A stretch of DNA of 64,000 nucleotides from Pecten maximus (GCF_902652985.1 NC_047017.1:39370001-39434000); one strand, 5' to 3'; positions 52,483 to 64,000 are shown, numbered from the stretch's first letter. Program-made: numbers and translations. The notes: generated by a model from the sequence alone, not told the origin.

Positions 52483-52505
52483 ATGATGGAGGAAGAAACA
52501 GAAAG
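52483..52505 (+). CDS. KNL1: KNL1 first coding exon (MMEEETE)
   Basis: ttttttccag|AAATGATG...GAAAG|gtaaga; phase 2 matches the next exon. Confidence 0.65.
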
Positions 52506-55500
52506 GTAAGACAGTTTTGCTGGAACCCTTTTCAATATTACTAAATTAAATATAGGTTAGCATTAAGTTACATAGCTATCTGCTGATGACTTATTTAGGT
52601 TAAATAAATATCCATACAAGAGCTGAAAATGCAATTTAAATTTTAGCCATTAACAGATATTATAGAACAATATTTATTTACAGAACTTGGAAAGAAATAC
52701 ACAGTCCCCCCACTATAAACCAATTTTGGGGAGGGGGGTGTTAATTTGTCAAGTGTCTCAGTTCTGTAAATAAATGAAATTTTCAGCTTCTCAAAAAACA
52801 GAATTAATATTAAATTTACATAAAAACCATCCATGACAGTTAAAACATAAATCCAAAATAGTATGATTGCTATGTTTGGCATATCAATATTACTCTAGAT
52901 TATTAATATGATAAATATCAGGGAATAATAACCTGTAATTCACAGAATTGCTAAATATAAATCATGGACATTGGTGATGAAATAGCAGAGGTTTTCAAGG
53001 AGTTTATTTGATCTGGCTTATGTGCACAATATAGTCTTTTGAATCTGTTGTTAACTTGCATATGAAATCTTGCTGAAATGTCATTGTTTTTTTATTGCAG
53101 ACTTACATTAAACTTGAATTCCAAGAGGAGGTCTAAAAGGAGATCCTCATCTGTGAGTACATGTATATGAAGTTTGGGAACCATGTCTATAAAATATTGG
53201 TGTGTATCCACTGACATTTGCAGATTGAAGAGTGCTGATTTATTAGCTCACACTGCCCTAAGGGCCGGTGAGCTTATGTGGCACATTGTCTGTTGTCCTC
53301 CATCCAGCATCCGTCAACATTTCATTTAAATCCCTATTAGTTCTGAACACCTGAATGGATTTTGATGAAATTTGGTCTGGAGCATCATTGGGCAAAGAAA
53401 ATCTAACATTGTATAAACGGAAATAAAATAGAGAAAATTGAAGTAAATACAAATCCTACCAGTCCTGAACGCTTGCATGGTTTTTCATGAAATTTGGTCA
53501 GGACCATTATATTGAGCTAATGTACATGTCAAATAACTGAAGGATGTGGCACTCTTGGGGCTGGAGAAAATGAGACTAATAGGGGAAATAATGCAACAAA
53601 AATACTTTAAAAATCCCTTTTTCTTTTCAAAGAATGACAGGATTTGGTTCACCTGTAGTTTGAACCGTTGTTGGGAGAGGCAGTTCAAAAGTAGGAAAAT
53701 ATTTAAAATTTAACTTAAGTTTGAGTATTTTCCCGTAATTACTGATATATCTGGGTATTCTGGGCCTCTTCTTTCTCAATATGATTTATTAAGCACATAC
53801 GTACTAAGACATTGTGGTATCATGACAATGAGTTACTTTCACATTGATAAACTATTTGCCTTGCTCCTCAACAACAGCAAAAAAGAGATGTAGGAAGGGA
53901 TGAAACCTGTGGCTGCAAATGTAAAACATTATTGTGATAGGTGAAAGGGAAAACAATTCTTTATATATTCTTTGATTCACAAGGAGCTCACCACGGTAGA
54001 AAACTACAAAATGTGTGTTGGAAAAGCTCATTAAAGTTTAATTTAAACTAAGGTGGGAGCCCATAATTAGATAATGGTCTGTCTGTGTAATTACTGTTTT
54101 GATGACATGTTTTGTGGGTTTTTCTTTTGTCTATACCTAGTAAAGTGTCCTTCTCCCCCTAACTCTCCACTTTTATACACTCACAAATACACCCCTTTCT
54201 ATATATCTGGTAAAAGGAAAAATTATTAAATAGATACACCTGTAAACAAATTAAAAAGAACACTTCCTGTAACCAGTAACATATCAACATCACTGAAAAA
54301 TTGACAAATACACAAAACACAATAATTAACAGTATGACATATTTGTAATATTATTTATAAGGTGTCGTTTTTTGTGTTTAGAATACCTATTTATGTCCCA
54401 TTCATGATCAATTTATGTTAAAAAAAATCTTCACCCTTTCAGATTTTGAAGACAACGATAGGACCATTATTGGACATTGATCCTAATAAACAGGTAAGAC
54501 GTCGACACATTTGACCAGATATAATGATTTTTGGCTCACATGGTACAATGAGTCATTAGGTCTTTCAGTTGTTTTGACAGTTTTTATTTCTTTATAACTT
54601 CAAGTTGCCTTTCACATATGCCAAAATTTCAGGTTTGAAACTATAAATAGGCATATCCTTAGTTAAAGAGAGTATTATTAATTTTGTTCCAATTAATGTG
54701 CTCGAGTCTGAAAATAATGTAAATTATTATATTGAATTATTTCTCATCAAGAGATCAAATTAAAGTATTAAAATTGCATGGGAAGAAAATAAATGGTAAT
54801 AAAATGGAAATATTCTTGTTTACCTGTCAGGATGGATGCAATGTTCCACTCAAGAAATCTAGACCATCATTATCAAAAAGAGTCAGCTTTGCTAGACTCC
54901 TTGAAGTCAAGTAAGTTGTTCAAAGAGTACACAACAATAGTGCTTTTAAAGTTTCAAATTATTAAGGGACCTATTACTACCTACACCTTAATATAAAAAT
55001 TCACAAGTCTATGCTTGGGCTTGGATCATACTTTTACACATTAAGTCATATATGTCATGTTTAACCCAAGTTATCAATTTCTGCATATATTAATCTTGCA
55101 TGAAATTATTTCTTCAAACCTATATAAAATGATGACTTCTCTCAATTTAGTCACACTCAATTCTCCCTCATACAGATCCCCCACTTATGTTTAAGGGCAA
55201 AATCTTGTTTCCTAAAATGTACTTCCATATACTTTACTGAAGTACTTTACTTTACTGCAGAATGTGCCTGGAACTGGCCTGGCTCAAAGACTAACAAAAA
55301 AAAAAACCCAACTAAAATGTGCTTTAAATTTGATGATGATCACATCAGGGCATTCAGTAGACCCTTGGGAGCATGTTTTTGTCTTTTTGATTTCCAAATA
55401 TTCAGATTTGGATTTTGGGATTGAAGGGAAATATTTTGTCTTTCAGATTTCTAAGAAATGGTGATTTGACTTATGAAGTTGCTTAAAGTCAAGTGTCAGC

Positions 55501-58500
55501 TGGATGCATTGAACATACAAATGTATATAAAAATTGCTTTTATGATGCAATTACAATATAAATATCAAATTTATACATATACCTGATACAATAACAATAT
55601 AGAGATCAAATTTATAGATATACCTGATACAATTACAATATATCAAATTTAAATGGGGCAAAGAAGTAATTCAAACAGTGTGGACAATGAGGCTTGTTAA
55701 ATTTTCGAGGCAATCCGCCCCTTTATCAAAACACAAAAAATACAAATACAATCACATAATATATATAAGATGTACTGGAAATACAATAAAATACAATAAG
55801 AATAATGTTTAAGTAACTGGAGAAACAACAATGAACCCTTCGGCAAACGTGGGCCGAAGGCGGATACTAGCGTGACTGTATCATGTTCAACACAATGCGA
55901 CCAACGGCAGAGATATTTTGAATTCTCCCGCACGTGAAAGTATATCGAAGAGTTCAAAGACGATTCGTCCCTAAAAACTTACAGAATAGGTAAGTAAAAA
56001 ATTAGTGGACGACATTGCGTTGATATCAGATTTCAGAATAAAAGTGTTGCATTATCGTCTCTACAGTGATTGATTAAATATCGTGTACAAAGTCTGAAAA
56101 ACTTTTGAAAAATATCTTTTAGATAATTAGAATTATAGAGAGTGGTGTGAAAAAAACTACTACGAATATTTATCAAGACTGAGAATATAAGAAATACGAA
56201 TGCCGAAGTGTCCCTACAGGACGCTATGGGAAACAGACGGTTCGGGCCAAATCGGACCAAGATGCTGTTGATGGCGGGAGGCGACTAAATGTGAGTCTCA
56301 AAGAGCAACAATGAATTGATGCCCAAAATTACAGCAATTATGAAAATTTTAATAAATTGAATAATTAACTACATGAATTGTCAAATATAATGGTCACATG
56401 GAGAATACACCCAGAAGAGGTCCTTCAACGTTCGTTCATACCCCGAGGGTAGCAGGTTTGGAGATTGGTAATCCAGTATCTTTCTCTGGAACGACGCTTC
56501 GTTTCATTCCAGGTAGGACAGTGATCAATGACGACCACCTGCATATCCTTCCAACTATGACTAGGTAAATTGAAATGCCTTGCCACAGGAAAGTCTGGTC
56601 TGTTTTGCTTGATGGAGTAACAGTGATTGTTGATTCTGATGTTGAGCTTTGTGCTGGTTTCTCCAACATACTGCATTTTGCATTTTTTGCAGGAGAGGAG
56701 ATATACAACATTGGCTGATGTGCTTGTCAGTGTTTGTAAAATGTGATAAACACGGTTGTTTATTTCACATTTTAACGTGTCTGTGGACTCAGTGTATGGG
56801 CAAAATTTGCACATTTTTTTTGCTGCATGTGTTGAAGGAGCCTGTTGTAACGACAGAGGCAGATGAATGTAATTTGCTGCTCACCACCAGATCTCTTACG
56901 TTTTTTGGTCTACGATAGGCCAATAACGGTGGTTCTGGAAAGATCCGTTTGAGTGTAGCTGACGACTCAATGATGCGCCAATGATTATGTAAAATGGAAG
57001 AAATTGACGGCAAGTTAGGATGGAACGTGACCCACAAGGGACCCTTTGTGTCGGAGTTCTGACTTTGTATTCAAGAAGGCTGGCTCTGTCAAGTACCCTG
57101 ACTTTGTCTAGTTCCTGATCTATCAAAGTAGATTTATATCCTCTAGCAAGAAGGTGTGATTTAAGTTCTGAGCATCGATGTTCGAAGACTATCATCGGAC
57201 ACTATCCGTCAGATACGTAGAGCTTGGGAATAGGGAATGCTCTTCGTTGTATGCGAGGGATGACAGCTGGACGGGCGGAGATACTGGTACGTGTCCGTTG
57301 GTTTGGAATAGAGGTCTGTGTTTATTTTTCCGTCAAGTAAGGTTGAACTGGTTCAAAGACGATTCGTCCCTAAATACTTACAGAATAGGTAAGTAAAAAA
57401 TTAGTGGACGACATTGCTCTCTAAAAATTATTGGACGACAGTACTCTTCGATATACTTTCACGTGCGGGGTAATTCAAAATATCTCTGCCGTTGGTCGCA
57501 TAGTGTTCTAGTGTTGAACATGATACAGTCACGCTAGTATCCGCCTTCGGCCCATGTTTGCCGAAGGGTTCATTGTTGTTTCTCCAGTTACTAAAACATT
57601 ATTCTTATTGTATTTTATTGTATTTCCAGTACTTCTTATATATATTATGTGATTGTATTTGTATTTTTTGTTTTTTTTATAAAGGGGTGGATTGCCTTGA
57701 AAATTTAACAAGCCTCATTGTCAACACTGTTTGAATTACTTCTTTGCCCCATATAATCATTACAAGTAATTCGTATCCTCCATACATTTATGTGATGTTC
57801 CAGTGTTTTCTGGATTATACTGTTTATATTACTTCTTTGACCCATATCAAATTTATAGATAACCTGATACAATTACAATATAGAGATCAAATTTATAAAT
57901 ATACCTGATACAATTACAATATATCAAATTTATAGATATACCCGATACAATTACAATATAGATATCAAATTTATAGATATACCTGATACAATTACAATAC
58001 ATAAATCAAATTTATAAATATACCTAATAATTATGCACTCATATTTAGTTGTTGAAATAACAAGATGTCTTAATATGTTTCTTGACACCACGTAATTGTG
58101 TAATTGGTCCGAGGTATATTTCGGTTGTCTTCATAATATTTGTCACAAACTACTGCAGATCCAACTCCAAGCATTGTATACATGTTATAAATTCAAATGC
58201 CTCATCTTTAACTATCAGCAGGGCATTTCAGTATTGTTCTGGTGCTGTGAGGCATTGTATTCTTTTAATTATAACAGTGTTTACTTATATTTGATATATA
58301 TACATATATACAGCGCATGCATGTATTTATAAATATGCATTGTGCTTTTTCTCTGTTATTTTTCAGAGAATTCCCACGAGACTCGCCACGTAGGTGTGAG
58401 GATTCTCCAGGTACTGTATGAACTTTATACATTGTGATAAAATATTCTTGTTTGCTACCAGAAACAAATTAGTTGCAGTATCTTTCAATAAACCTCTACT

Positions 58501-61500
58501 CTATTTACTTAAATTGCATAAAAGAAACTGGTTAATTTGATTATCCCTCAACTTCACTTAGCTGTCTTTTAGTCTTGTGTGTTAGTCTGATAACTAAAAC
58601 ATTCTTGCTGAACTTAAAGCACATTGTAGTTGCCAAGTGACATCAGAGGTGGGCAGAGCTTGTTACTGAATTCACTGTCTTTTGCCAAGCAAGGCGGCAG
58701 GTTGACAGAGCTTGTTACTGATCCTGCCTGCTATGGGTAGACAACAGTTTATTCTTTCTTTTTGGCGCTGTCATGGTTTTCTGAAACAAATAAAAGGTAG
58801 TCCAAAAGATACTGGAGAGCACAAAATCATTGAAGGCATCCATTGTCGTTATGGGATAAAATAGACCAGATTGATAGATGTCAGGTTAATAATTACAATC
58901 AAATATTACGAAAATTTTATGCTCAGAATGGGGATGTGCATTATTGTATATCCAAGTCTGGCATTATGTTACAAAATCACTTATTCGGACATGAAACTGG
59001 AGTATCATCAATGGCAGATTATTTTGCCAATTCAAATTTCCGGTCATGCAGTTACTCTTGTGAAATTTTTAAAGTGAAATATAGTCACCACATAGCCTGT
59101 ATATTTCATTTCAGTCAGGTTGCATTGGTTTCATTGCCATCTCAATGACTGGACACAGGTATAAAGACTGTGTTTAACAAATAAAAATATCTCTCTGGTC
59201 TGCATGATAAAATGGTTAAAGGGTTGAGGATATATAGCAAGCTTCTGGTTTCCCTCGACCATGCCTATTTCCCTCGGCTTCACCTTGAGAAATAGACCTG
59301 GTCTCACGGAAGCTAACTATATCCCTCAACTTAAACAGTATAATAATCTAATAAATAGCAACCATTCTAAATATACTAACAGGTATAGATGTATAGGTAT
59401 GTTAAACACAGTAATTTTTCTCAAACTATATTACTGAATCATCTAGCAAAGAAATAAATATCCATAGCTACTATTCTTTGCTATGACTTTCCTATAAAAG
59501 AAGGTTTTGATGGTGTGCTAAATAACCTCATGGTAATACCCTTGACATGGTCAAAGTGGTAACTTGTCATTTAAATGATACGAATATAATGTAAATACAA
59601 ATTTTTCAATACAATATGTGTACAATTTTCAGATCATTTCATCCTAAGGTTTGTATGTAGAGGAACTATAATGATTAGATATCCTGTGTTTATGTAATAA
59701 AGTTCTGTTCCTTTATTCAACAGCACAAGAACCAGCAACAGACACAGGGTATGTTCTTATTGTAAAACGGATATTTTTTTCCAGTTTATCCACACTGACA
59801 ACAATAAGCAGTTAATACAATGTATTAACTGATATGATGTGTTATTGTCAGATGTATGTACAGCTAAAAAACATTTTGATATCAGTTCACATTTTTTCAT
59901 ATCATTGAAATTGGAAATGTCAAGAGAAAAAAAAGTATTTTATCGTGAAAAATCAGGTAACAAGTTCGTCTCATTCTGAAAATGGTTGTTCCGCCTGGTT
60001 TATAGAGCTGTGACAAAATTTGAAAAATTTGTAAAGTGAAAATAGGAAGAAGCAATGAAAAATTACCTGCCCTCCCTAGTGCTTAAACTGGTGATTTCTA
60101 ACTGCTCTGTCAATTACTGGACTTGAGGGAAATTTCTACAAGCCAGAGCTTGTAAGGTGACTTACACCAGAATTTAAACAAAACTATGGAAATTATGAAT
60201 GGGCCATGCTATCCTAATTTGTGCTTTGATGTTCTTTTTCTATTTCCTGCTTCAGAAATGACACAGTACCTTTGACAAATCCAGTTACAATTCAGCAAGA
60301 TCAGCATGGTAACTTTTGTCCTTATTTTCATTCATTTTGTGTAGATTTATAATATATCAAAGTACATTATACAAGGTATACCAGGTATTTGAAAAGGTAG
60401 TAAATAAACTGGTTAATACCTAATTATATTATTAAGAATTAAGTTTATGAATATTAGATGAGAAGTTTCCTAAACTATAGGTCATGATCATTACTATGTA
60501 CTTATCATGAAGTTATTTCAGTTCACCTTGTTAACTGTAATAATATGGAGCAAGTTGAGAAGTTGAATATTAAGAACATAATGAAAGTCACCAGATAAAA
60601 CAAAGATTAAATTTCTAGTAAACATGTTAATATTTCGAAACCCGAAATTTTCAGAGGCACCAACAGAGTTCAAGTTAAACTTGCATCTTTTTCTTTTCTC
60701 TTTTTGTTTTTTTTTACTTTATAATAATTTGTTTTTATTTATTTGTTTTTTTCAGTGACAAATGTCTCGGAAGGTCAGCTTGAAGGGTAAGAGAAACATG
60801 ATTCTTCCCACTAGGCTTTATACATATGATAATGCATCAGTGATATGAAAGAAATGATTTTATCCTGGTATGAATCATAATCAGAGCTTCTGATTTTCTG
60901 AGTTCCTTGAATACCACATTATAAAAGGTAGACAATGTCGATCTATTGGAGTTAGTGATGGGATAGCAATCAGCTATAAGTGACTAATTACTCTTTTAAC
61001 ATCAACTAATAGATGCGATTATTGATTATAATTTTTCATAACCTTTGATGTACTTGGTTTCCTGTTTTTTTTTTTATAAAACTCATTCCATAGCCTACAT
61101 AGAGTGCATTATAATGTTATTTGGCAGCAAATTAGAGATTAGGGAAGCATTTTTGGTTTGTTAAAGTAAAACATGACTGCAACAGAAAATGCAAAATTAC
61201 ATCTATGGGTTTATTGGGTTTGAAATGAATTGATTATGTTCTTGGGTGTATGTGATACACCCCATCCCCATGTTTTCTGAAACAGCCCTAACTTTACTAT
61301 AGCTTTATCAGTGTAGTGAAGGTACAACACATATATAGATACTATGCTTCAAAATAACTGATTCAGTGATATAAAGTTCCCATGTGATTAATTTTTGTGA
61401 TGATTGCATATAAGAAGAATTGTTAAAAATAACAACAAAAAATTGAAAATCTGTGTTTACATTTTCTTTCAGTTCTCGGATGCCTCTGCTGCCAAGTATG

Positions 61501-64000
61501 TCTGCCCCTCATACAGAGAATGATTTTGATAAATACTCACAGCACTTGAATCCATTAATTCCAGCCATGGTTGAGACTTCTGGGATTGCTGGCACTGCTG
61601 TCAGCTCCAGACAACCACAGATATGGAGACAGGAGTCTAAGATTGATGGCAGTTCATTACTGAAATCAATTACAGGAACAGGTACGCAACCTAGAGAAGG
61701 AATGGAATTGGGGTACCACACACAATCTAGTGAGACCTCTAGCCTAGTATCTAAAGCTGCTGGCAGTGATACAAAAGTTGATGGCATGGCCTTGTTACAA
61801 GCTCTTGGTGGTGGGGCTTCAAACACTTCTGCTGAGCCAGAACTACTGCCATCTTACAGTGTCGGGGATAATCCCAAAGAACAGTCAGTTCAAAATACAA
61901 GGGCCATGATGTTTTCAGAAAGCAGGTACATGGACCAAACCAAAGCACTCACATGTCACACTCAGCTACGGGAGGCAGAAGCTTGTCTGAAAGGTTTAAG
62001 AGAGCGCACTCCACTGATGGCACTGAAGGACCAGGCTGTTGATAATGTTCGTTACGGAGTACTGAATGATGACCCAGGTGACAAGACGATTGTGTTTACT
62101 CAAGGGGATGATATGCAGCAGACAGAAGTGCTGCCAGTCGGATTACAATTAAACTCCCAACCTTCTGACGGGGAGGTTTCTTGTCTGTCTGGACATGTCA
62201 ACAGACAGAGCCTTCTACGGTCCTTAGGCGGATCTGATGAAACTGACAGCCCTGAGGTATTATTTGCAAAGAAGTTTGAAACATCAAATTCAAATATTGA
62301 GAGACCACCATTCAAGGGATATGATACAACACATCAGAGAGAGGCGACCATTGTGTTTCAACAAGGACTGGAAATGGAGGAAACAGGAGTTATACATGCC
62401 CAAATTGATAGACAAGATGAGTTTTTGTGTGCAAATACATCTGACAATGGAAAAGTGCAATTTTACCTTGGGAGTGACTCGGAGGAAATACAATCTGCAG
62501 ACATGCCAATGTACAGACCAGTGGAACAAAAAACTGTCAACAAAACATTGATTTATCAAGATGGTGCAGACATGGAACAAACTGAAGTACTGGATAGTAA
62601 TATAAACCACAGATCGCTGGCACAACCTCCTATCAACCAAACGATGATACAGGGGGCAGACATGGATCAAACTGAAGTACTGGATAGTAAAATAAACCAC
62701 AGATCGCTGACACAACCTCCTATCAACCAAACACTGATACAGGGGGCAGACATGGATCAAACTGAAGTACTGGATAGTAAAATAAACCACAGATCGCTGA
62801 CACAACCTCCTATCAACCAAACGCTGACACAGGGGGTATCCATGAAACAAACAGGAGTTATATCCAACAATATTTTATCAAACACATCAACTTTCCAAAG
62901 GTCAGATAGCAAAACTCTAATATTTCAAGATGGCGCCGATATGGAACAAACAGGAGTCATATCCAACAATATTTTATCAAATACATCAACTCTCCAAAGG
63001 TCAGATAGCAAAACTCTGATATTTCAAGATGGTGCCGATATGGAACAAACAGGAGTCATATCCAACAATATTTTATCAAATACATCAACTCTCCAAAGGT
63101 CAGATAGCAAAACTCTGATATTTCAAGATGGTGCCGATATGGAACAAACAGGAGTCATATCCAACAATATTTTATCAAATACATCAACTCTCCAAAGGTC
63201 AGATAGCAAAACTCTGATATTTCAAGATGGCGCCGACATGGAACAAACAGGAGTCATATCCAACAATATTTTATCAAATACATCAACTCTCCAATGGTCC
63301 GATAGCAAAACTCTAATATTTCAAGATGGCGCAGACATGGAAGAAACTGGAGTCATTGATACTAAATTTATTAACCGATCATTGGTACGACCAGTCAACC
63401 AAACCGTGATGGATGGGGCTGCCATGGAAGAGACTGGTGTCATTGATGCTAAAATTACCAACCGATCATTGGTACGACCAGCCAACCAAACCGTGATGGA
63501 TGGGGCTGCCATGGAAGAGACTGGTGTCATTGATACTAAGATTACCAACCGATCATTGGTACGACCAGTCAACCAAACCATAATGGATGGGGCTGCCATG
63601 GAAGAGACTGGTGTCATTGATACTAAATTTATTAACCGATCATTGGTACGACCAGTCAACCAAACCGTAATGGATGGGGCTACCATGGAAGAGACTGGAG
63701 TCATTGATACAAAAATTACCAACCGATCATTGGTACGACCAGCCAACCAAACCGTGATGGATGGGGCTGCCATGGAAGAGACTGGTGTCATTGATACTAA
63801 ATTTATTAACCGATCATTGGTACGACCAGCCAACCAAACCGTGATGGATGGGGCTGCCATGGAAGAGACTGGTGTCATTGATACAAAAATTACCAACAGA
63901 TCATTGGTACGACCAGCCAACCAAACTGTGATGGATGGGGCTGCCATGGAAGAGACTGGTGTCATTGATACAAAAATTACCAACAGATCATTGGTACGAC
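52483..64000 (+). CDS. KNL1: KNL1/Spc105/CASC5 kinetochore scaffold, 5' part (runs off the window end)
   Basis: Exons 52483-52505, 53101-53152, 54443-54493, 54831-54910, 58367-58410, 59724-59748, 60256-60308, 60756-60786 and 61473->64000 splice GT-AG with continuous phase. They give MMEEETERLTLNLNSKRRSKRRSSSILK...SKRVSFARLLEVKEF...: SILK and RVSF PP1-docking motifs, KI-like motifs, and TxxF/Y + MELT-like repeats. Confidence 0.88.
53101..53152 (+). CDS. KNL1: KNL1 exon (LTLNLNSKRRSKRRSSS)
   Basis: ttattgcag| ... TCT|gtgagt; supplies the S of SILK. Confidence 0.85.
53238..53771. mobile_element. non-autonomous Helentron (HINE)-like element
   Basis: TTTATTAGCTCAC...GCCC-TAA-GGGC...GTGAGCTT hairpin end, then a (C/T)GTC-like microsatellite, repeated ATGAAATTTGGTC units and a TGGGCCTCTT end; layout typical of bivalve HINEs (recognised from family knowledge). 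Confidence 0.6.
54443..54493 (+). CDS. KNL1: KNL1 exon (ILKTTIGPLLDIDPNKQ)
   Basis: ctttcag|ATTTTGAAG...CAG|gtaaga; completes SILK. Confidence 0.85.
54831..54910 (+). CDS. KNL1: KNL1 exon with RVSF motif
   Basis: ctgtcag|...KRVSFARLLEV...|gtaagt. Confidence 0.9.
55652..57845 (-). mobile_element. 5'-truncated, degenerate Penelope-like retroelement (RT C-terminus + Cys-rich linker + GIY-YIG endonuclease; Neptune-like) with inverted terminal repeats
   Basis: Minus strand 57350-56425 reads TDLYSKPTDTYQYLRPSSCHP...LLARGY...AYRRPKNVRDLVV...CKFC...VVYLLSCKKCKMQYVGET...RERYWITNLQTCYPRGMN, with a stop and frameshifts. 55653-55953 is inverted at 57443-57752, and 55952-56018 is repeated directly at 57351-57417. 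Confidence 0.92.
55695..55733 (-). ncRNA. minimal type I hammerhead-ribozyme-like motif (U3-A8 variant) in the Penelope terminal repeat
   Basis: Minus strand UGUU-UUGAUAA-A-GGGGC(GGAUU)GCCUC-GAA-AAUU-U-AACA: stem I UGUU/AACA, 5-bp stem II, palindromic AAUU stem III. Degenerate copy on + strand at ~57672-57710. Confidence 0.6.
58367..58410 (+). CDS. KNL1: KNL1 exon (EFPRDSPRRCEDSP)
   Basis: tttttcag| ... CAG|gtactg; gives VKEF after RVSF. Confidence 0.75.
59724..60786 (+). CDS. KNL1: KNL1 small exons 59724-59748, 60256-60308 and 60756-60786
   Basis: Each is GT-AG bounded. Phases run 1-2, 2-1, 1-2 and link exon 58367-58410 to the large exon without stops. Low-complexity peptide, so less certain. 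Confidence 0.6.
61473..64000 (+). CDS. KNL1: KNL1 large exon with KI-like motifs and MELT-like repeat array
   Basis: ttttctttcag| acceptor; stop-free frame of >840 codons to the window end; M-x-x-T motifs preceded by T-x-x-F/Y (e.g. DSKTLIFQDGADMEQT). Confidence 0.9.
62572..64000 (+). repeat. coding tandem repeats in KNL1: 90 bp x3, 99 bp x5, 87 bp x7 or more
   Basis: Motif ATGs at 62572/62662/62752/62842 (period 90), 62941/63040/63139/63238/63337 (period 99), 63424/63511/63598/63685/63772/63859/63946 (period 87). Confidence 0.95.

What the first reader, a model, noticed from the sequence alone, without database searches (positions are those of the whole stretch)
61930..64000. All MELT-type repeats are non-canonical (MDQT, MQQT, MEQT, MKQT, MEET)
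Seen: 19 M-x-x-T motifs, none with the usual hydrophobic residue before Thr (Q or E instead). Early and 99-bp units keep TxxF/Y (KTIVF, KTLIY, KTLIF), while the 90-bp and 87-bp units lack the aromatic (QTLIQ, QTVMD). Known: Mps1-phosphorylated M[ED][LIVM]T binds Bub3-Bub1, and TxxF/Y boosts repeat activity. Inference: a lineage-specific rewrite of the spindle-checkpoint docking code, possibly co-evolving with Bub3/Bub1 or compensating weak sites by copy number.
Basis: partly seen in the sequence, partly recalled or inferred. Interest (0 to 1): 0.7.

Follow-up and report, generated by a model that had tools for sequence, protein, structure and literature searches.

The report
Scallop KNL1 with MEET-type checkpoint repeats
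This scallop's chromosome-attachment protein KNL1 has a polar residue where most animals have a greasy one in every checkpoint docking repeat, a switch shared with oysters and already reported in print, and since the partner protein's binding pocket is unchanged the repeats likely still dock it, probably more weakly.

Summary
There are 19 M-x-x-T motifs at 61930-63957, all with Q or E before Thr; 8 of them carry TxxF/Y. The gene is a spliced, apparently single-copy KNL1 (SILK, RVSF, Spc7, RWD fold). Beyond the window it has five more units (3 MEET, MEEI, MAET) and no canonical MELT. The change is not species-specific. Two other scallops (18 of 19 and 17 of 18 motifs E/Q) and an oyster (11 of 13) share it. 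Gastropods, a brachiopod, deuterostomes and sea anemones keep a hydrophobic residue. MELT-to-MEET switching and array homogenisation are published (Vleugel 2013; Tromer 2015), and Pacific oyster MEET repeats are in that dataset. All nine Bub3 positions near the MELT peptide match those of MELT-using animals, so no Bub3 co-evolution is visible. Copy number (20 M[ED]xT) is ordinary for animals (1-25). The Bub1 loop could not be compared. Most likely these remain Mps1-primed Bub3-Bub docking sites of lower affinity; binding is untested. Verdict: a new example of a known pattern, useful as a natural test of what the Bub3 pocket tolerates.

The parts
52483..52505 (+). KNL1 first coding exon (start Met)
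   Evidence: exact placement of P0002 aa 1-8; GT..AG joint in run X1
53102..54493 (+). Exons 53102-53152 and 54443-54493; the PP1-docking SILK motif is split by the intron (S / ILK)
54832..54910 (+). Exon with the KRVSF PP1-docking motif (54876-54890)
58367..60786 (+). Four small coding exons (58367-58410, 59724-59748, 60256-60308, 60756-60786)
61473..64000 (+). Large repeat exon of KNL1 (P0002 aa 121-1305); continues past the window to about 65028 in window numbering
61639..62232 (+). Three KI-like motifs (KIDGSSLL, KVDGMALL, HVNRQSLL), kept in three scallops, with Leu where other animals have Phe
   Evidence: pattern drawn after seeing the sequences; function untested
61930..62583 (+). Four old, non-tandem units (MDQT 61930, MQQT 62113, MEET 62374, MEQT 62572); each is closer to its counterpart in another scallop than to any unit of this protein; units 2-4 carry TxxF/Y
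62566..62836 (+). 90-bp tandem array (30 aa; MEQT, then two MDQT without the aromatic)
62842..63356 (+). 99-bp tandem array (33 aa; MKQT, four KTLIF-MEQT, one KTLIF-MEET)
63325..64000 (+). 87-bp tandem array (29 aa; QTVMD-GAA-MEET, no aromatic); 7 units in the window, 11 in all, mean pairwise DNA identity 94%

Best explanation
This is the repeat exon of the scallop's spliced KNL1 gene; its MELT-family repeats carry Glu or Gln before the Thr, as in other scallops and oysters, and they likely still work as Mps1-phosphorylated docking sites, probably of lower affinity, for a Bub3 whose pocket is unchanged. Shown: gene identity, splicing, motif census, distribution across animals, unchanged Bub3 pocket, an intact Bub3-binding (GLEBS) motif in the Bub gene, and an Mps1 kinase exon. 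Inferred steps: (1) The switch was fixed once, before scallops and oysters split. Unequal crossing-over then amplified a different unit in each scallop genus. (2) Mps1 still phosphorylates the Thr, because its known determinant, an acidic residue at -2, is kept in 20 of 24 units. (3) Bub3's basic patch binds the -2 Glu and the phospho-Thr, and Met(-3) fills the hydrophobic pocket. The lost -1 contact would lower affinity. It may be offset by the hydrophobic +3 residue (22 of 22 units), which would face Lys181/Tyr182, and possibly by Glu(-1) meeting Lys268. (4) The 8 units with TxxF/Y are likely the stronger recruiters; the aromatic-less units are likely weak.
For: KNL1 identity: SILK and KRVSF, Pfam Spc7 35.4 bits (cut-off 34.5) and MELT 49.8 (cut-off 30). 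The model of the C-terminus matches human KNL1 structures 8ppr, 4nf9, 8q5h and 4nfa as the only Foldseek hits at E<0.001. Seven of 8 upstream introns are seen as GT..AG joints, five of them in contigs of three studies. One locus only for a repeat-exon DNA query and for a C-terminal exon, so no canonical-MELT paralogue was found. E/Q at -1: this species 20/20, Mizuhopecten 18/19, Argopecten 17/18, Saccostrea 11/13; at most 2 per protein in the 17 non-bivalve proteins counted. These four form one side of a 98/99 branch (the oyster branch is long). Old units are conserved in place across three genera, e.g. KTIVF..MQQTEVLP and TIVFQ.GL.MEETGVI, which fits purifying selection on the polar form. Bub3: the nine positions that Primorac 2013 lists at the peptide, mapped through yeast 2i3s, are K181 Y182 R204 Y221 F223 K224 R227 W263 K268. 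Eight are identical in 40 of 40 named animal Bub3s; Y182 is Y in 37 and F in 3. Bub gene spliced in four runs with an intact GLEBS motif. Mps1 exon (E 1e-20 to human TTK). Mps1 prefers acid at -2 (PMC5268738). Mussel embryos have an Mps1-dependent checkpoint (PMC7290841).
Against: In the yeast structure the -1 side chain is buried in a deep hydrophobic pocket, so Glu or Gln there should cost binding. My searches returned no binding measurement for an MEET or MEQT phosphopeptide. In human KNL1 TxxF/Y is critical for BUB recruitment, and 16 of 24 units lack it. Mussel KNL1 was not retrieved, so the mussel checkpoint result may concern a canonical-MELT protein. The 87-bp array is too young to show selection: 10 of its 13 variable codon positions change an amino acid. 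The Bub3 set was retrieved by similarity to the scallop exon, which favours conserved sequences.
Confidence: 0.65

Rival explanations
1. Only the few old TxxF/Y-bearing units recruit Bub; the large aromatic-less tandem blocks are mostly neutral products of unequal crossing-over that act as spacer.
For: Each scallop genus amplified a different unit. Only 8 of 22, 5 of 20 and 2 of 18 scallop units keep TxxF/Y, against 12-17 in most canonical animals. 10 of 13 variable codon positions in the 87-bp array are non-synonymous, including one Thr to Ile. In human KNL1 only 6 of about 20 repeats recruit detectable BUB (PMC4558858).
Against: All three independent expansions kept Met, acid, E/Q, Thr and the +2/+3 hydrophobic pair. 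A sea anemone has repeats almost without TxxF/Y (1 of 8), so the aromatic is not universal.
Confidence: 0.3
2. One reading: the docking code was rewritten together with compensating changes in Bub3 or in the Bub1 loop.
For: One Bub3 column (Gly280; Ser in 12 of 12 MELT-type species) separates scallops and oysters from the rest. The scallop Bub has four short repeats just before GLEBS. Tromer 2015 notes the Bub1 loop diversifies fast.
Against: All nine listed pocket positions are unchanged. Gly280 is not a listed contact and is the only such column of 328; it is Ser in pearl oyster and mussel, whose KNL1 type is unknown.
Confidence: 0.1
3. Recruitment has shifted to the Bub TPR domain reading TxxF and KI-like motifs, as in C. 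elegans, leaving the M-x-x-T position free to drift.
For: In C. elegans phospho-TF motifs, not MELTs, are essential for BUB-1 localisation (PMC10996584). The old scallop units keep TxxF/Y, oyster units mostly keep it (9 of 13), and three KI-like motifs are conserved in scallops.
Against: Scallop arrays mostly lost the aromatic. The KI-like motifs have Leu for the Phe that is indispensable in human KI1. Position -1 did not drift: it is held at E/Q across scallops and oysters.
Confidence: 0.12

Closest known systems
Pacific oyster (Crassostrea gigas) KNL1 repeats in Vleugel 2013 (PMC3871444) and Tromer 2015 (PMC4558858)
   Same: Bivalve KNL1 whose repeats read MDET/MEET (first 400 residues visible in the supplement). 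[quoted passage not shown]
   Different: Oysters keep TxxF in most units and one MELT near the N-terminus. This scallop has no canonical MELT, uses Gln as well as Glu, and lost the aromatic in 16 of 24 units.
MEET repeats of anopheline mosquitoes, MDET/MEET of the choanoflagellate Salpingoeca rosetta, ExxEED of drosophilids (Tromer 2015)
   Same: Parallel replacement of the hydrophobic -1 residue by Glu; the paper names 'MELT to MSLT/MEET' as recurrent.
   Different: Independent origins. Drosophilids also lost the Thr, whereas scallops keep it. A Gln-dominated consensus (MEQT/MDQT) was not seen in the text or in the truncated supplement that I could read.
Homogenised KNL1 arrays of lamprey, Blumeria graminis and drosophilids (Tromer 2015)
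   Same: Recent species-specific tandem amplification that overwrites the array.
   Different: Here three different unit lengths (90, 99, 87 bp) sit side by side in one exon.
Yeast Bub3-Bub1-phospho-MELT complex (PDB 4BL0, Primorac 2013) and human TxxΩ-MELT-SHT modules
   Same: Same reader with the same pocket chemistry; Met(-3), acid(-2) and Thr kept.
   Different: The buried -1 hydrophobic residue is absent, and there is no SHT after the motif.

Membership tests
KNL1/Spc105/CASC5 | N-terminal SILK and RVSF PP1-docking motifs | tested here: met
   SILK at aa 25, KRVSF at aa 58, on spliced exons
KNL1/Spc105/CASC5 | Array of MELT-like repeats | tested here: met
   Pfam PF19221 49.8 bits, cut-off 30; 24 units
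KNL1/Spc105/CASC5 | C-terminal coiled coil (Spc7) | tested here: met
   PF08317 35.4 bits, cut-off 34.5; long helices in the model
KNL1/Spc105/CASC5 | C-terminal tandem RWD domain | tested here: met
   Pfam Knl1_RWD_C does not hit P0002, but the model (pLDDT 83) matches human KNL1 RWD structures at E 8e-12 to 5e-9
Canonical phospho-MELT (Bub3 ligand) | Hydrophobic residue at -1 (M[ED][LIVMF]T) | tested here: not met
   0 of 20 M[ED]xT in P0002; none in the gene span
Canonical phospho-MELT (Bub3 ligand) | Met at -3, acidic residue at -2, Thr acceptor | tested here: met
   20 of 24 units; exceptions MQQT, MKQT, MAET, MEEI
Canonical phospho-MELT (Bub3 ligand) | Phosphorylation by Mps1/Plk1 and phospho-dependent binding to Bub3-Bub1 | not testable with these tools
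   needs biochemistry
TxxΩ-MELT module (human type) | TxxF/Y upstream of the MELT-like motif | tested here: inconclusive
   present in 8 of 24 units, absent in 16
Bub3 MELT-reading pocket | Equivalents of yeast R217, F236, F238, R239, R242, W278, R283, K193, Y194 | tested here: met
   9 of 9 are the general animal residues

The most novel reading that the evidence does not exclude
Scallops lost the hydrophobic anchor of all three known Bub-binding motifs of KNL1: the -1 residue of MELT, the aromatic of TxxΩ in most units, and the Phe of the KI-like motifs. Bub3's pocket stayed the same. The repeats would then dock Bub3-Bub by a different geometry, or be read by another surface or protein, which would be a second checkpoint docking code in animals.
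Probability: 0.12. Interest if true: 0.6.

Novelty: new member of a known kind. Interest (0 to 1): 0.27.

Why it matters
MELT-to-MEET switching was noted from sequence a decade ago, but my searches returned no test of how such repeats bind. This case narrows the options. The switch is shared by scallops and oysters, complete in this species, and came without change in the listed Bub3 contacts or any unusual repeat number. Scallop peptides and Bub3 are therefore a clean reagent pair for asking what the Bub3 pocket tolerates at -1. As a discovery it is modest.

Tried and rejected
Complex prediction (Bub3 P0199 + Bub GLEBS exon + unphosphorylated KNL1 aa 726-760) gave no verdict: score 0.50 against an unrelated control at 0.40; it is used neither for nor against. 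Word-index homologue searches with the repeat region and the C-terminus each found only three scallop proteins; distant homologues came from the HMMER library search (21 hits). Three of those 21 (P0136, P0137, P0144) are C-terminal fragments without repeats and were left out of the motif counts. A full-length member (P0156) stood in for P0136, both oyster records are listed, and P0144 was not named. No mussel, clam or cephalopod KNL1 repeat region was recovered, so the origin of the switch within bivalves is open. ESM Atlas gave no usable hit. A genome-wide MELT family scan found no second array, but it barely scored the true one (17.1 bits), so it is weak. One of two matches to the Bub3 pattern (C11) is not Bub3, and the reversed control pattern also matched once. 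Rejected: assembly artefact or non-coding satellite (the exon's 5' part to 62600 is in spliced contigs, and other scallops have equivalent arrays); species-specific rewrite; copy-number compensation.

Full report
Observation. The frame opening at 61474 runs to the end of the window and holds 19 M-x-x-T motifs from 61930 to 63957: MDQT 3, MQQT 1, MEET 9, MEQT 5, MKQT 1. None has a hydrophobic residue before Thr. Eight of 19 have TxxF/Y upstream; the QTMIQ/QTLIQ/QTLTQ and QTVMD units do not. Arrays of 90, 99 and 87 bp are confirmed. Shuffling residues 121-1305 gives 0.17 such motifs on average (maximum 3 of 2000 shuffles) against 22 observed.

The gene. The window is G000:C3:39370001-39434000. 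A database protein identical to this locus (P0002, 1883 aa) maps exactly onto 22 exons from window position 52483 to about 80634. It has SILK and KRVSF, Pfam MELT (49.8 bits) and Spc7 (35.4 bits), both over cut-off. Pfam's RWD model misses it, but an AlphaFold model of the C-terminus finds only human KNL1 structures at E<0.001. Contigs of runs X1, X2 and X6 (three studies) show GT..AG joints for 7 of the 8 upstream introns, five in all three runs; X7 shows none of these joints. DNA and protein searches of the genome each gave one locus. The nearest relatives are scallop proteins. The genome's Bub3 exons match 327 of 328 residues of a record labelled Pecten maximus.

Downstream test. Past the window the exon adds MEET x3, MEEI and MAET, then a TxxF-LDET unit. 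No M[ED][LIVMF]T exists in any + frame from 52 to 82 kb. The protein therefore has 24 units and no canonical MELT. MGIT and LGIT in the next exon have a hydrophobic -1 but no acidic -2.

Distribution. An HMMER search with the scallop C-terminus returned 21 proteins, named. Counts of E/Q at -1 among M[ED]xT: this species 20/20, Mizuhopecten 18/19 (one MELT), Argopecten 17/18, Saccostrea 11/13. Against these: Haliotis 1/13, Lottia 0/5, Littorina 0/6, Gigantopelta 0/15, Lingula 0/7, two lancelets 1/16 and 0/7, Ptychodera 1/17, six echinoderms 0-2 of 17-25, three cnidarians 0 of 1-8 (the coral Stylophora has 1 hydrophobic and 3 other of 4). Scallops and oyster group at 98/99 support, with a long oyster branch. 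One origin before their split is the simplest reading; it is not proven. Units 1-4 are closer to their counterparts in other scallops than to any unit of the same protein, while the tandem units are closest within the species. An old polar motif has thus been re-amplified separately in each genus. Repeat number is ordinary: 18-20 in scallops and 13 in oyster, against 13-25 in many canonical species.

Bub3 is one gene on C12. Primorac 2013 (PMC3779320; section 8 and passages read) lists the yeast residues at the peptide. Mapped through the PDB alignment they are K181, Y182, R204, Y221, F223, K224, R227, W263, K268. Eight are invariant in 40 of 40 named animal Bub3s, from coral to seal; Y182 is Y in 37 and F in 3. 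The 120 search hits agree, but they were chosen by similarity. Only one of 328 columns separates five MEET-type from twelve MELT-type species: Gly280, not a listed contact. No Bub3 co-evolution is visible. The Bub gene on C1 is spliced in four runs, with TPR, an intact GLEBS motif (E 1e-4 to human BUBR1) and kinase-like exons. Its loop could not be compared with other species. An Mps1 kinase exon is present.

Mechanism (inferred). Mps1 prefers an acidic residue at -2 (PMC5268738, passages); 20 of 24 units keep that residue and the Thr. Bub3's basic face and the Met pocket can still be engaged. The buried -1 contact is lost, so lower affinity is expected. Every scallop unit has a hydrophobic +3 residue (22 of 22, 20 of 20, 18 of 18), the position that stacks on yeast Lys193; this is common but not universal in other animals. 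In human KNL1 TxxF/Y is critical (PMC3871444, passages and section 11), so the eight units with it are the best candidates for strong sites. In yeast, weak motifs trade checkpoint strength for faster silencing (PMC7292645, passages). C. elegans shows an alternative in which the BUB-1 TPR reads phospho-TF motifs (PMC10996584, sections 9 and 13). Mussel embryos have an Mps1-dependent checkpoint (PMC7290841, passages), but mussel KNL1 was not recovered. In flies the ExxEED region contributes to MAD1 and probably BUB3 recruitment (10.1101/2024.08.21.608908, passages), so acidic variants are compatible with function.

What is known. [quoted passage not shown] Tromer 2015 (PMC4558858; main text parts 1-4 of 5 read) reports MEET in anopheline mosquitoes, names MELT to MSLT/MEET as parallel events, describes homogenisation, and already proposes Bub3 or Bub1-loop adaptation. 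Its supplement (parts 1 and 9 of 10 and two searches; sequences cut at 400 letters) shows oyster MDET/MEET, Salpingoeca MDET/MEET and Aplysia MEIT/MELT. Figures and logos, including Fig. S6, were not visible and may already show details I treat as unreported. Searches for bivalve, scallop or oyster with KNL1 returned 0, 1 and 1 papers, none on this topic by title. A search for MEET with KNL1 and Bub3 returned Tromer 2015 as the only title on repeat evolution. Subscription journals are mostly not covered.

Verdict. A real feature, correctly described, and a new example of a published pattern. What this work adds is small: a fully non-canonical array, Gln as well as Glu, loss of the aromatic in the amplified units, an unchanged Bub3 pocket, and ordinary copy number. 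Interest 0.27.

Noticed in passing
window 61639-62232 (P0002 aa 176-373): Three KI-like motifs conserved in three scallops. Similar motifs with Phe occur in abalone, Gigantopelta, lancelet, hemichordate, starfish and cnidarian KNL1 (12 of 19 proteins match a post hoc pattern), although Tromer 2015 says KI motifs are not conserved beyond vertebrates. One literature search gave two papers, which I did not read.
   Followed up: partly
L021:4693-4907 minus (G000 C1, about 31.015 Mb): The Bub exon just before GLEBS holds four short repeats of the form Q-x-[FYH]-N-[DN]-E-N-x-[NK]-P. They resemble ABBA motifs by recalled consensus; untested. Four codon-level differences in this and the next exon plus one more are seen in run X1 only.
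   Followed up: no
L012/L015 (G000:C312:158-1213): Second copy of the Bub TPR exons on a small contig, with a stop inside each match; haplotig, intron read-through or pseudogene, not examined.
   Followed up: no
window 55700-57850: Repetitive element in KNL1 intron 4, on the minus strand, with a GIY-YIG endonuclease frame at 56428-56880 (38.3 bits) and mutually inverted-looking ends; Penelope-like by recalled architecture; many diverged copies in the runs.
   Followed up: partly
P0199 position 280 (G000 C12 Bub3): Gly in scallops, oysters and Tegillarca, Ser in nearly all other animals (Thr, Ala in three); not a listed MELT contact.
   Followed up: partly
L002, window numbering 65418-65681: D-x-G-[IM]-T repeats (MDMGIT, LDLGIT) in the exon after the repeat exon, conserved in three scallops; role unknown.
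   Followed up: no
window 2070-41383: Dense run of unrelated tandem arrays (units 19-70 bp, up to 218 copies) covering much of the first 41 kb.
   Followed up: no
G000:C3 about 39469571 onward: The next gene downstream of KNL1 begins MFTPRG...; it looks like nucleoporin Nup133 from recall, not tested.
   Followed up: no
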